Of a stretch of 64,000 bases of DNA, positions 21,597 to 24,994 are shown piece after piece (position 1 is the first letter of the stretch; each line of letters starts with the position of its first letter). Where the stretch lies: positions 1-64,000 of the IMG/VR virus record IMGVR_UViG_3300021255_002536; one strand, given 5' to 3'. The position numbers and the translations under genes are program-made. This DNA comes from a virus (lineage: Duplodnaviria; Caudoviricetes). The notes beneath the pieces were generated by a model. That model saw nothing but the letters and a program-made list of their open reading frames with translations. It was not told the origin of the DNA and did no database searches.

Positions 21597-22775
21597 TTAA
21601 AAATCATACAGTTCGAATTTAGTCACGGCGCTGTCAAAACGTCCGACAGAGAGGAATTTCGGTGTAAGGAACAGTTGGCACCGGATATTGAAAGAGGCAT
21701 AGTGCGAGAGAATACCCAGGAATGAATTGACGGAGTGGAATACCGCCTCCTTATCCTTCATATCCAAATCGTTGATGTTCCTGATCATCCGATTCAATGA
21801 AGCATTACTGATATAGGTCACGTCGGGTTTGATGAATGCACCCAGAAACTCCACGCCATGACGGGCATCGTGGATTTGTATCTTTCCCTGATTCAGTTCC
21901 AGTCCGAGCTCTTCACCAAGGAAATCCTCGATGGAAGGAATCAGCGCATTCAGACGGGCCTTGCTCTCATCGACCACAAAAGAGTCATCGACATATCGGC
22001 CATAGTGCTCACAGTGCAACACACGCTTCATAAACTGGTCGAATGGATTCAGATTGACATTCGAGAAAAGTTGTGAGGTAAGATTACCGATAGGCAGTCC
22101 GCGACCGTCGATGGTGTAGAAAAGGCTCTTTGCATGGTCGAGACCATCCCAATCGTGTACCGAGCCAGCGATACGGCAATTCTCCTTCGGATTAAGCAAG
22201 GCGATCTCGCTGGTCAGCCAAAGTGCGAAGTCAACATCTATCACGTCACCCCATGTACGGGCCACACTTCCTGCACGACGTACCGACATTTTCTTAATGG
22301 AGTCGCAGGCGATGTCTGCCAGACGCTTACGGTCGATGTGCATAAAGTAGCCGCGCTTATCGAGTTTCAGCACATGGCAGTGTCTCTGGTAGCCGTGACT
22401 ACACTTGCGGATGTGCTTCTTCAGCCGCTCAATGCCGAAATGGGTACCACGTCCAGGAATGCAGGAATAGCAGTCGGCAATCAGGGTGCGCTCGTAGAGC
22501 TGATGCAGCATGTTATAGTAGAGGTGATGCACTACACGATCACGGAACTGTGCTGCGAAAACCTCACGCTTCTTTGGATGCTCAACGATGAAACAGGTAG
22601 AGGGTTCGGGTATGTAATTACGATTCCATAAATCATCACAAAGGCTGTCAAGATTCTCATCCAGACGTTTTGCAAACTTCACCACATACGGTTTCTTACT
22701 CTTGTGCTGCTTTGCGCAGACAAAAGCCGAATGCAGTTCCAGTCTTAAATGATCCTTTGTTAAATGATATGCCAT
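21597..22775 (-). CDS. DGR reverse transcriptase
   Basis: PKKRE.FA..FRDRVVHH, GLPIGNLTSQ (DGR-type SQ), RYVDD and G.EFLG motifs; no intron X/En domain. Confidence 0.95.
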   Translation of the reverse strand: MAYHLTKDHLRLELHSAFVCAKQHKSKKPYVVKFAKRLDENLDSLCDDLWNRNYIPEPSTCFIVEHPKKREVFAAQFRDRVVHHLYYNMLHQLYERTLIADCYSCIPGRGTHFGIERLKKHIRKCSHGYQRHCHVLKLDKRGYFMHIDRKRLADIACDSIKKMSVRRAGSVARTWGDVIDVDFALWLTSEIALLNPKENCRIAGSVHDWDGLDHAKSLFYTIDGRGLPIGNLTSQLFSNVNLNPFDQFMKRVLHCEHYGRYVDDSFVVDESKARLNALIPSIEDFLGEELGLELNQGKIQIHDARHGVEFLGAFIKPDVTYISNASLNRMIRNINDLDMKDKEAVFHSVNSFLGILSHYASFNIRCQLFLTPKFLSVGRFDSAVTKFELYDF

Positions 22776-22822
22776 ATTACATTTTGTTTTTCTCTTTTTG
22801 TTTCATACTGTAAGCCGATAAG

Positions 22823-23009
22823 TACTGAACGGGACGAACAGAGAAGCCGTTGAAACGGTTGTTGTTGTTCTGTGGATTGACACCACCCGAATTGAAGTTG
22901 AGGTTGCGCCCGTTCGTAGCCGAATTGAGTGACGACGACCAGTAGTTGCCGTTCGTGCCGCGATTATTCCACGACAATCCATTCCCGTTGCCGGAGGCGG
23001 GGAAGAACA
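22823..23009 (-). repeat. DGR template repeat (TR)
   Basis: Aligns gap-free with 23937-24123; carries 17 AAY codons. Confidence 0.95.
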
Positions 23010-23219
23010 TCCCGAACTCCAACCGAAAAGTCAGTTATCACCTGCCTAACGTAAGGAAAGAACCGGCGCTGACTGATCAGTGGAGCGGAGCCATCCTATG
23101 TTTTTCCTAAATTTTTCCACCACCCCAAAGGGTGACAGACGGATAACCTATGAATTTAGGGGCGAACAGTAATTAAGTCAAAGAACGAACCGCCAAAGCG
23201 AGAGGTTTATATCACAACA

Positions 23220-23795
23220 CTATAGTAAGCTCACAACCTTACGTTTCATGCTTCTAATAAATTCTATATTCTGTTCGGCTGTACTGGATTCCAGTGGATA
23301 GCCGAGAACTTCAGAGACGATAGAGAACAGACCACTACGTGCTAACATCGTTTGCGGGCTTGCGCCCTGCGTGATACGGTTTCGATTGGCAGCCTGCTCA
23401 TGCAGAGGACATGAAGCCTTCCAGTCGTTAAAAGCCTTATTCAAGGCCCCACCGGTGGCATCCTCTCCGAACATGTTGATATCAATGGTAATCACGAGAT
23501 TGTTACCATCCAAACTATCCATGCTCTTATATGCCGGAACGAACTTAGAAAGAGACTCTACTGGAAATCCTACAAGTACATACTCACCATTCTTTCCGTT
23601 ATATCTTTCTGACTTGATGATATCCTTATCTCCGCGACCACGCTGAAACTCCTCAGTACATACATATTTCTTTATCAGGAAGGCACTCACCTCGAAAGCA
23701 TGATAGAACTTTCCTTCCTTATAAAGGAATATCTTTGAGAAGTCATCCACTGAGTTGCGGACTTTCTCTTTTTCTAACTTTTCATTCAGATTCAT
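23220..23795 (-). CDS. MutS-N-terminal-like (MSL) DGR accessory protein
   Basis: IFLYKEGKFYHAFEVSA and VGFPVESLSKF resemble MutS domain I (G.FYE...A; .G.P...L..Y); sits in the Avd position. Confidence 0.75.
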   Translation of the reverse strand: MNLNEKLEKEKVRNSVDDFSKIFLYKEGKFYHAFEVSAFLIKKYVCTEEFQRGRGDKDIIKSERYNGKNGEYVLVGFPVESLSKFVPAYKSMDSLDGNNLVITIDINMFGEDATGGALNKAFNDWKASCPLHEQAANRNRITQGASPQTMLARSGLFSIVSEVLGYPLESSTAEQNIEFIRSMKRKVVSLL

Positions 23796-23837
23796 ATTTT
23801 TTACCAAACAATTTAAATTAAACCGATAATCTTAGTA

Positions 23838-23922
23838 TCTCTGCCATCCGTTTCCCTCGCCTGTGTCGCGCCGCCTTTCGGCGGCTGTAAGCGACACAAG
23901 CAGGGCAAACGGGTGTCAGAGA
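23838..23922 (-). promoter_or_regulatory. Long hairpin/cruciform 3' of VR with GCCGCC-GAAA-GGCGGC core
   Basis: Core 23870-23885; arms extend through TGTGTCGC/GCGACACA, CCCT/AGGG, CCGTTT/AAACGG and TCTCTG/CAGAGA. Confidence 0.8.
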
Positions 23923-23935
23923 GTGCGCCCCTAAA

Positions 23936-24994
23936 TTACTGAACGGGACGAACAGAGAAGCCGTAGAAACGGTCGTAGATGCTCTGTGGATAGACACCAC
24001 CCGAATCGAAGTAGAGGTAGCGCCCGAGCGAAGCCGAATAGAGCGACGACGACCAGTAGATGCCGCTCGTGCCGCGACTATTCCACGACAATCCATTCCC
24101 GTAGCCGGAGGCGGGGAAGAACAAAATCTTTCCATTCAACTTCGACTTAATGCGCAATCCCGTGATACCATTCACTGTTGTACGTTTATCAGTCGTAGCG
24201 GCATCGATAGTGGCACCCGAAGCATCGATATAGTCGATGTTGTCGAACAGCTCTTTAAACTCGTTGGTGGTCGGCATACGCCATGGTGCTCCCAGGTTCA
24301 CACGGGCTGCATCAAACGACGGGCTAATGTGACCGGTCAACGTTGCGCCAGGAGTGTTGGCATAGGGGCCATCGTTGGCAGAGCCAAAGTCATAGTCGAA
24401 GGCACTGTTGCTGATTGGGTTGTGTCCCTGAGTGTTACCCCAAGAGAAGAAACTGCACTCATACTGGAACTCAGAAGCAGCGAAATGGTCGGCCTGAGAG
24501 AGGTCGATGTTCTTCTTAGCCCAAAGCAATCCGCTGGGCAGACCCATATCCACATACAGCTCATCGTCGCCACCACTCTGTTCGAGACCCATCAGCGATA
24601 CGATATTGTAGTGTGTGCCATCATACTGAAGCAGGGCTGTCATACCTGGGCGAATAACGCCTGGCTGAAGGGCTGCATCATCGATATACAATGGCTTGGC
24701 ACCCGTAGAACTGATGTTCAAGGTAGCATCGGCCACCTTCACTGCATTGGTGAAGCGGATAGCCACAAAGCTATTCTTGATCAGCAAGAAATTAGAGATT
24801 GTAGCCGTCTTTGCTGCTGTTGTGGCAGCCGTCGAGCAAGTACCCTTGGCAAAACCAGCCTTGGCCATGTCGGAGAAAAGTCCGAGGTTGCCAATCTCGC
24901 TGGGCAATGCCTCATACACATTGTTGTTACTGGTGATGGCCAGGATCTTGGCAATGGTTTCACCAGAAGCAAGAGAGGTTTTTGATTTAATCAT
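23936..24994 (-). CDS. DGR target protein, probable receptor-binding protein with C-terminal CLec-type domain
   Basis: YVDMGLPSGLLWA, WRMPT..E..EL, FFPASG, YWSSS and GFSVRPV motifs; VR encodes the C-terminus. Confidence 0.9.
   Translation of the reverse strand: MIKSKTSLASGETIAKILAITSNNNVYEALPSEIGNLGLFSDMAKAGFAKGTCSTAATTAAKTATISNFLLIKNSFVAIRFTNAVKVADATLNISSTGAKPLYIDDAALQPGVIRPGMTALLQYDGTHYNIVSLMGLEQSGGDDELYVDMGLPSGLLWAKKNIDLSQADHFAASEFQYECSFFSWGNTQGHNPISNSAFDYDFGSANDGPYANTPGATLTGHISPSFDAARVNLGAPWRMPTTNEFKELFDNIDYIDASGATIDAATTDKRTTVNGITGLRIKSKLNGKILFFPASGYGNGLSWNSRGTSGIYWSSSLYSASLGRYLYFDSGGVYPQSIYDRFYGFSVRPVQ
23937..24123 (-). repeat. DGR variable repeat (VR)
   Basis: 18 mismatches to TR, all at TR adenines (11 A>T, 6 A>G, 1 A>C by manual alignment). 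Confidence 0.95.

What the first reader, a model, noticed from the sequence alone, without database searches (positions are those of the whole stretch)
23153..23937. DGR RNA leader carries a perfect 12-nt complement of the sequence immediately 3' of VR
Seen: on the sense (minus) strand, the non-coding leader between MSL and TR reads CGCCCCTAAATT (23164 to 23153). The target's stop codon and 3' flank read AATTTAGGGGCG (23937 to 23926), and the match extends to 14 of 15 nt. This flank is where VR and TR homology ends. The same leader segment can alternatively pair locally with AATTTAGG (23113 to 23106). Known: in BPP-1, target choice depends on IMH plus a DNA hairpin; I know of no RNA guide in that system. 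Inference: a possible RNA-guided target-recognition or priming step, a long-range mRNA fold looping out MSL, or inverted repeats of an invertible MSL cassette.
Basis: partly seen in the sequence, partly recalled or inferred. Interest (0 to 1): 0.75.

Follow-up and report, generated by a model that had tools for sequence, protein, structure and literature searches.

The report
Upstream DGR primer matches target flank
In this gut phage's diversity-generating retroelement and its relatives, a short RNA strand placed before the template repeat co-evolves to stay complementary to the DNA just after the variable repeat, which supports a published but untested idea that the RNA primer itself steers the mutated DNA copy to its target, here in a rearranged RNA layout.

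Summary
The match is exact but unremarkable alone: about 15 such 12-mer inverted pairs lie in the window. Relatives settle it. In 64 distinct DGRs the leader strand before an invariant CA is complementary to the DGR's own VR flank (longest run 9.8 vs 4.35 non-cognate; 0/20000 permutations), with 18 compensatory changes among 25 on independent branches. Remote VRs on the opposite strand keep the match, MSL is never inverted (0/201), and the local alternative pairing is not conserved. The strand also pairs, more weakly, with the TR 3' flank, in the geometry of BPP-1's template:primer duplex, and is followed by a covarying stop-like helix, a stem-loop and an A-run. Best reading (0.72): it is the cis primer of a DGR RNA whose spacer lies 5' of TR rather than 3', and it anchors the cDNA at the VR flank. 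Priming is inferred, not shown. The scan noted the same on other DNA (e1-5914571).

The parts
23936..24994 (-). DGR target gene, 352 aa, C-terminal CLec-type domain; stop codon TAA at 23938-23936
   Evidence: ORF; Pfam Fib_succ_major E 0.002 and Lcl_C E 0.003, both under their cut-offs
23939..24123 (-). Variable repeat (VR), ending in the last codon CAG
   Evidence: 18 mismatches to TR, all at TR adenines; all 26 listed VR differences in contigs of four runs map to TR adenines
23926..23937 (-). VR 3' flank (IMH-like site), perfect complement of the leader strand
23838..23922 (-). Long DNA hairpin/cruciform after the flank, with an inner GC stem and GAAA loop at 23885-23870
   Evidence: inverted repeat I1; DNA fold -35.1 kcal/mol; no terminator-like T run found here
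23220..23795 (-). MSL (MutS-like) accessory gene, 191 aa
   Evidence: Pfam MutS_I in 8 of 60 family members at E<=0.05, best 2e-4; AlphaFold model pLDDT 90; the top 28 VIA-align rows are MutS/MSH domain I, best Z 5.4, rmsd 3.5-4.3, 78-87 residues; Foldseek top hit Taq MutS, E 0.21
23153..23164 (-). Guide / inferred primer strand of the DGR RNA
   Evidence: covariation with VR flank; weaker pairing with TR flank
23151..23152 (-). Invariant C-A, the inferred priming site (C pairs with TR G22825)
   Evidence: CA in 74 of 74 representatives; C:G pair in 59 of 59 at register 0; priming itself is inference
23142..23148 (-). Helix P1, 5' strand (GGTTATC), cPRT-stop-like
   Evidence: 98.2% of 440 cells paired, 101 two-sided changes vs 35 shuffled, 0/500; coordinates
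23112..23138 (-). Variable stem-loop P2 followed by a conserved unpaired A-run (GGAAAAA)
   Evidence: alignment A3; hairpin z below -1.5 in 38 of 63, median -1.73
23040..23105 (-). Long stem with interior loops (P3), candidate RT-binding element
   Evidence: RNAalifold consensus pairs at columns 147-158 with 185-197, 14-26 two-sided changes at most pairs; role is inference
23033..23039 (-). Helix P1, 3' strand (GATAACT), just upstream of TR
22825..23009 (-). Template repeat (TR)
   Evidence: no TR differences listed in contigs of four runs (23 weaker rows not shown)
22813..22824 (-). TR 3' flank (IMH*-like), imperfect partner of the guide; the whole TR-to-RT spacer is only about 50 nt
   Evidence: register pattern; duplex -12.7 vs -21.1 kcal/mol for the VR flank, RNA parameters
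21597..22775 (-). DGR reverse transcriptase, 392 aa, YVDD at 261
   Evidence: Pfam RVT_1 E 1e-12; PHROG 1423 E 2e-81; motif

Best explanation
An active phage DGR (target-VR-hairpin-MSL-leader-TR-RT, no avd) whose structured RNA lies 5' of TR. The elements that BPP-1 carries in its 140-nt spacer 3' of TR (primer strand, stop helix, stem-loop, unpaired adenosines, long RT-binding stem) occur here in the same order upstream of TR, a circular permutation of the DGR RNA. Step 1 (pairing shown by covariation, role inferred): the strand ending in UUCA folds over TR and pairs imperfectly with the TR 3' flank. Step 2 (inferred by analogy): RT primes in cis from C23152 or A23151 and copies TR with A-to-N errors up to helix P1. 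Step 3 (complementarity shown, role inferred): the RNA primer, now joined to the cDNA 5' end, leaves the mismatched TR flank for the perfectly matched top strand of the VR flank, next to the hairpin; primer and cDNA then form one nearly continuous antisense strand, in most members with the T of the stop codon unpaired. This fixes target identity and TR-to-VR direction. Step 4 (inferred): primer and the first 12 or so cDNA bases are removed before ligation. MSL's role is unknown; binding the mismatched RNA-cDNA/DNA junction is a guess.
For: Cognate guide:VR complementarity and fixed register (+1 in 48 of 64, 0 in 8). Branch-disjoint pairs, 23 of 37 used (both members at register +1): 18 compensatory Watson-Crick double changes, 2 double changes without pairing, 5 flank-only, 0 guide-only; control positions 4 of 105. 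Second VRs in 4 clade loci all keep runs of 7-11 nt, three of them 7-11 kb away on the opposite strand; L169 and L263 remote flanks share downstream sequence yet differ in the first 9 nt, each matching its own guide. G-U is rare in the guide:VR helix (7 of 512) against helix P1 (25 of 440), as expected for RNA:DNA. Two of the weakest cases (L099, L102) and L091 have split guides with a hairpin looped out that still pair with the VR flank. Guide:TR pairing is above null (dG -8.4 vs -5.4; the distal guide prefers TR, -8.9 vs -5.6, and not VR, -6.1 vs -5.7), VR beats TR in 55 of 64, and the U.C mismatch then C:G pair repeat BPP-1's U54.C120 and C55:G119. No complement downstream of TR (910 and 4847 of 5000 permutations) and the spacer is only 20-92 nt. 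TR adenines 2-12 nt from the anchor are never changed in VR (0 of 64 and 0 of 13; 13 of 32 at 16-21 nt), like BPP-1's co-conversion boundary. BPP-1 Sp48-56 pairs 9 of 9 with VR IMH and with one mismatch and a wobble in 8 with TR.
Against: No RNA-cDNA junction was seen; only contigs could be laid. A nucleotide profile of the leader core does not find the BPP-1 spacer, so the match to BPP-1 is one of architecture, not detectable sequence homology. Guide:TR covariation is weak on independent branches (12 paired double changes, 13 unpaired, 13 guide-only, 22 flank-only) and part of it may reflect the likeness of TR and VR flanks. The invariant A faces an A in TR (59 of 59), whereas BPP-1's A56 pairs with U118, so the priming base is uncertain. 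A remote VR can inherit its flank by duplication (L221's two flanks are alike beyond the guide). 8 of 64 have runs under 8 nt. The 23 tree pairs were chosen for sharing the best register.
Confidence: 0.72

Rival explanations
1. The strand is a target guide but not the primer: it forms an R-loop on the VR flank to dock the RNP, and cDNA is primed elsewhere (target DNA nick, or another RNA end).
For: All guide:VR evidence fits equally; guide:TR covariation on independent branches is weak; A faces A at the supposed primer end.
Against: Fixed guide:TR register in 59 of 64 with an invariant C:G pair, TR-specific pairing of the distal guide, no other primer candidate downstream of TR, and the adjacent stop-like helix. 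BPP-1 cDNA synthesis is target-independent.
Confidence: 0.13
2. RNA:RNA pairing inside a read-through transcript (target-MSL-leader-TR), looping out MSL and sequestering the strand, as regulation of priming or of MSL expression.
For: All parts lie on one strand 670-840 nt apart; no terminator-like site follows the VR hairpin, so read-through RNA may exist and would pair.
Against: Remote VRs on the opposite strand cannot pair in cis yet keep the match; G-U is four times rarer than in the true RNA helix P1. It may still occur as a side effect.
Confidence: 0.1
3. Inverted repeats of an invertible MSL cassette, acting as DNA.
For: The two copies are inverted repeats that flank MSL.
Against: MSL is on the RT strand in 201 of 201 loci with an MSL hit; no strand-changing joint in contigs of four runs (contigs drop rare forms); the repeat sequence differs freely between lineages, is split by a hairpin in some and occurs singly at remote VRs.
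Confidence: 0.02
4. Chance inverted repeat.
For: About 15 perfect 12-mer inverted pairs within 2 kb exist in the window.
Against: 0 of 20000 permutations; compensatory changes.
Confidence: 0.005

Closest known systems
Bordetella phage BPP-1 DGR RNA: Sp47-56 primer strand, template:primer duplex and cPRT Stop (Handa et al., bioRxiv 10.1101/2023.10.23.563531)
   Same: Primer-like strand ending UCA with a U.C mismatch and C:G pair to the TR 3' end; then a short linker, a helix with the segment just upstream of TR, a stem-loop, unpaired adenosines and a long interior-loop stem.
   Different: Here these elements lie 5' of TR and the TR-RT spacer is only 20-92 nt; no avd; no detectable sequence match to the BPP-1 spacer; the terminal A faces A, not U.
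Primer:IMH integration model (Naorem et al. 2017, PMC5703328)
   Same: [quoted passage not shown]
   Different: Proposed from one element and not tested there; here the pairing covaries across 64 distinct DGRs and at remote targets, and the paired site starts in the stop codon outside the TR/VR repeat.
MSL-containing DGRs (Architecture D of Wu et al. 2018, PMC5758913; Bacteroides DGRs of bioRxiv 10.1101/2024.11.15.621889)
   Same: MutS-like accessory gene between target and TR; CLec-type target; Bacteroidales context.
   Different: Those were reported always to carry avd as well; this clade has MSL without avd (0 of 1 and 0 of 20 records).
RT-10 RNA motif (Weinberg et al. 2017, PMC5737381)
   Same: A structured RNA beside a DGR RT gene, suggested to act as primer.
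   Different: RT-10 lies between TR and RT; no Rfam family matches this leader or 20 related loci.

Membership tests
Diversity-generating retroelement | DGR-type reverse transcriptase | tested here: met
   RVT_1 and PHROG 1423 hits, YVDD
Diversity-generating retroelement | TR/VR pair differing only at TR adenines | tested here: met
   18 of 18; 26 of 26 listed differences among isolates
Diversity-generating retroelement | VR at the 3' end of a CLec-type target | tested here: met
   VR ends at the last codon; Fib_succ_major/Lcl_C hits are below cut-off
Diversity-generating retroelement | IMH/IMH* difference and hairpin downstream of VR | tested here: met
   flanks diverge after CAG; hairpin with GAAA loop; GRNA loop rule from PMC3240598
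BPP-1-type DGR RNA (spacer 3' of TR, Avd-bound) | Primer strand in a ~140-nt spacer downstream of TR | tested here: not met
   spacer 20-92 nt, no complement downstream
BPP-1-type DGR RNA (spacer 3' of TR, Avd-bound) | avd gene | tested here: not met
   PF22296 absent from G000 and 20 related records, 10 of them at least 90% complete; found beside RT in more distant loci
BPP-1-type DGR RNA (spacer 3' of TR, Avd-bound) | Template:primer duplex next to a stop duplex, stem-loop and unpaired As | tested here: met
   met as architecture, in permuted order; sequence homology not detected
BPP-1-type DGR RNA (spacer 3' of TR, Avd-bound) | Covalent RNA-cDNA primed in cis | not testable with these tools
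   only assembled contigs were available
MSL accessory proteins | Small protein resembling MutS domain I | tested here: inconclusive
   consistent but sub-threshold: Pfam below cut-off for the window protein, VIA-align Z 5.4 with MutS domain I in the top 28 rows; G-x-F-Y motif kept (F in 53 of 60)
Invertible DNA cassette | Both orientations found | tested here: not met
   0 of 201 loci inverted; no joint in contigs

The most novel reading that the evidence does not exclude
A large second class of DGRs (Bacteroidota phages, and also Avd-bearing Bacteroidota, Patescibacteria and Treponema elements) uses a circularly permuted RNA in which a free-standing 9-18 nt primer/guide upstream of TR alone sets the integration site. 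In this clade it works without Avd, so RT plus a reprogrammable guide and TR would be a compact RNA-guided, site-specific hypermutagenesis tool whose address is separable from its template.
Probability: 0.4. Interest if true: 0.85.

Novelty: new variant of a known kind. Interest (0 to 1): 0.7.

Why it matters
How DGR cDNA finds and enters VR is still called poorly understood. The primer:IMH model rests on one alignment in BPP-1. Natural compensatory changes in dozens of lineages, and at remote targets, are comparative evidence that pairing to the VR flank is under selection, and they name the bases to swap in a decisive test. The upstream layout explains how DGRs with almost no TR-RT spacer, and without Avd, could prime, and it gives a way to predict true targets of multi-target DGRs and perhaps to retarget them.

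Tried and rejected
Local alternative pairing with 23113-23106: not conserved. Inversion: rejected. A bridge-RNA-like left guide (leader GTTC resembling the VR end), an early idea: dropped, because the distal leader is better explained by pairing to the TR flank; not tested separately. 'Permutation caused by loss of Avd': rejected, since Avd-bearing relatives also have short spacers and upstream complements. Sequence homology of the leader to the BPP-1 spacer: not detected (the shuffle control in that script crashed because the real spacer gave no hit). Rfam: no family at the window (four chance hits) or in 20 loci. Single-sequence folding of the leader was uninformative (z -0.5) and did not give the covariation-supported fold unaided. 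A second VR in the window's own record: none. MSL as reader of a T bulge: weak, since 8 of 64 have no bulge. RNA-library contigs cover the locus but cannot show transcription or junctions. Minerva preprint and DGRec preprint: no such result in the passages seen.

Full report
OBSERVATION. One such match means little: the window has 23 perfect 12-mer inverted hits within 2 kb, about 15 separate places.

ANATOMY. On the minus strand: target gene 24994-23936 with a weak CLec-type C-terminal match; VR 24123-23939; flank; a long hairpin 23922-23838 with a GAAA-capped inner stem; a 191-aa ORF 23795-23220; a 210-nt leader; TR 23009-22825; about 50 nt; RT 22775-21597. TR and VR differ at 18 places, all TR adenines. 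Contigs of the same phage in four runs differ across VR, and all 26 listed differences face TR adenines, so the element diversifies. The record is a 101-kb virus record; the closest genome loci are in Prevotellaceae and other Bacteroidales bins. The accessory ORF resembles MutS domain I by profile and fold, always below firm thresholds. No avd was found in the own record or in 20 related ones.

COVARIATION WITH THE VR FLANK. I gathered loci with RT and MSL queries. The first 11 loci with TR and VR already showed a 7-13 nt complement with different sequences. To avoid circular choice I located the strand with a profile of the 60 nt downstream of it, built from 24 seed loci. Of 240 loci with an RT start, 64 lacked this core, 24 lacked an adjacent VR, 1 had no anchor; 151 remained, 74 under 90% RT identity, 64 with distinct guide/flank (one search was a first pass with some wrong anchors). 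Longest perfect run: 9.8 cognate, 4.35 non-cognate; 8 or more in 56 of 64 against 252 of 4032; 0 of 20000 permutations. The register is fixed: the guide's last base faces the second base after the final CAG in 48 of 64 and the first in 8. On an RT tree, 23 of 37 branch-disjoint pairs shared that register; they gave 18 compensatory double changes, 2 non-pairing double changes, 5 flank-only and 0 guide-only changes, against 4 of 105 at control positions. Eight members have runs under 8; two of them (L099, L102), and L091, which the profile missed, have a split guide with a hairpin looped out and still pair over 9-16 nt.

WHICH MOLECULES PAIR. Four clade loci hold a second VR; all four flanks match the guide over 7-11 nt, and three lie 7-11 kb away on the other strand, where no shared transcript is possible. 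The L169 and L263 remote flanks share downstream sequence but differ in the first 9 nt, each fitting its own guide; L221's could be a recent duplicate. G-U pairs are 7 of 512 in this helix but 25 of 440 in the leader's own helix P1, which suits an RNA:DNA hybrid (inference). MSL is never inverted (0 of 201) and no contig changes strand. The local alternative pairing is peculiar to the window (1 of 64) and is broken in near-identical copies.

THE STRAND ALSO PAIRS WITH TR. The guide pairs with its own TR 3' flank better than with others (dG -8.4 vs -5.4; 0 of 20000), at one register in 59 of 64, with C:G in 59 of 59 and mostly a U.C mismatch beside it; its distal part prefers TR and not VR; VR is the stronger partner in 55 of 64. 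This pairing is loose: perfect runs average 4.7 against 4.0, and independent contrasts are mixed (12 paired, 13 unpaired double changes, 35 single changes). Downstream of TR there is no complement to either flank and the spacer is 20-92 nt.

THE REST OF THE LEADER. In 63 aligned leaders (one over-long leader left out) the bases after CAUA pair with the segment just before TR: 98.2% of cells, 101 two-sided changes against 35 in shuffles, and slid controls at 20-75%. A variable stem-loop, an A-run and a long interior-loop stem follow. No Rfam family matches.

COMPARISON WITH BPP-1. In the cryo-EM study (bioRxiv 10.1101/2023.10.23.563531; parts 1-3 of 5 read, and passages) Sp47-56 pairs with TR117-129 and A56 primes; two bases later Sp59-70 pairs with the segment upstream of TR, then come a stem-loop, unpaired As, a single-stranded ring and a long stem with interior loops. 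That is the order seen here, moved to the 5' side of TR. On the BPP-1 record the primer pairs 9 of 9 with VR but with a U.C mismatch at the third pair with TR. Naorem 2017 (PMC5703328; passages and whole Discussion) says this and proposes that primer:IMH pairing drives integration, leaving it open. A profile of the leader does not find the BPP-1 spacer, so I claim shared architecture, not proven homology. TR adenines within 12 nt of the anchor are never changed in VR (0 of 64, 0 of 13) while those at 16-21 nt are (13 of 32), like the BPP-1 co-conversion boundary.

SCOPE. Among 34 distinct DGRs outside the core-motif clade (36 with clean repeats, 2 duplicates; 3 more skipped), upstream complements to VR and TR ends exceed non-cognate pairs (0 of 5000 each) and downstream ones do not (4969 and 1932 of 5000). 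The effect is modest (8.2 vs 7.7 of 10) and includes near relatives of the clade, but also avd-bearing loci and Saccharibacteria loci with 12-14 nt runs. So the layout is probably wider than this clade and not caused by loss of Avd; which layout is older I cannot say.

LITERATURE. Searches found no report of an upstream DGR primer or of guide/flank covariation. I saw passages only of PMC5758913, 10.1101/2024.11.15.621889 (13), PMC12875486, PMC6182149, PMC3240598, PMC5737381, 10.1101/2025.03.24.644984 (92) and 10.64898/2026.09.22.753630 (16). Subscription journals are not searched, and supplements that could bear on novelty (Handa's Table S3 and Fig. S18; Weinberg's RT motifs) were not seen. 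An earlier AI note of this scan, e1-5914571, reached the same reading on another genome; I found it after my own analysis and do not count it as support.

VERDICT. Real, selected feature; most likely the cis primer of a permuted DGR RNA that also addresses the cDNA to VR (0.72). Shown: complementarity, covariation, leader structure, absence of inversion and of avd. Inferred: priming, hand-off, processing, MSL's role. New variant of a known kind; interest 0.7.

Noticed in passing
L153:786-880 region, L156, L157 (Saccharibacteria bins; TR on the strand opposite RT): A segment about 100 nt upstream of TR is a 12-14 nt perfect complement of the VR 3' end and flank, with different sequences in the three loci; no MSL hit.
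   Followed up: partly
L103, L104, L114, L118, L119, L120, L123, L129, L131, L135, L158, L159, upstream of TR: More distant DGRs, most with avd, have short TR-RT spacers and an upstream strand ending in C that fits the TR/VR end, followed by a strand that can pair just before TR; several share a GCCRGAAT...GGTYAAGGC element 5' of it, a candidate Avd-binding stem.
   Followed up: partly
L099:4272-4315, L102:925-968, L091:1646-1684: Split guides: a hairpin is looped out when the strand pairs with the VR flank, and one arm of that hairpin is complementary to the TR flank, suggesting a conformational switch.
   Followed up: partly
L042 and L081, VR 3' ends: Small indels in VR exactly at the final CAG codon, the inferred RNA-cDNA junction.
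   Followed up: no
window:23220-23795: MSL occurs without avd in this clade, contrary to the statement that MSL DGRs also carry avd; it has a separate C-terminal helical part (146-191) of no assigned fold.
   Followed up: partly
L124, L127, L128 (Odoribacter bins), upstream of RT: Arrays of 7-12 TR-like repeats with mostly non-adenine differences beside a DGR-type RT.
   Followed up: no
L061/L181, leader: The invariant CAYAGG motif is altered while the rest of the core is intact, and the VR match is only 6-7 nt; possibly a decaying element.
   Followed up: no
window:27865-27975: Nine-base tandem repeat encoding a PETPEN-type run in a 288-aa ORF.
   Followed up: no
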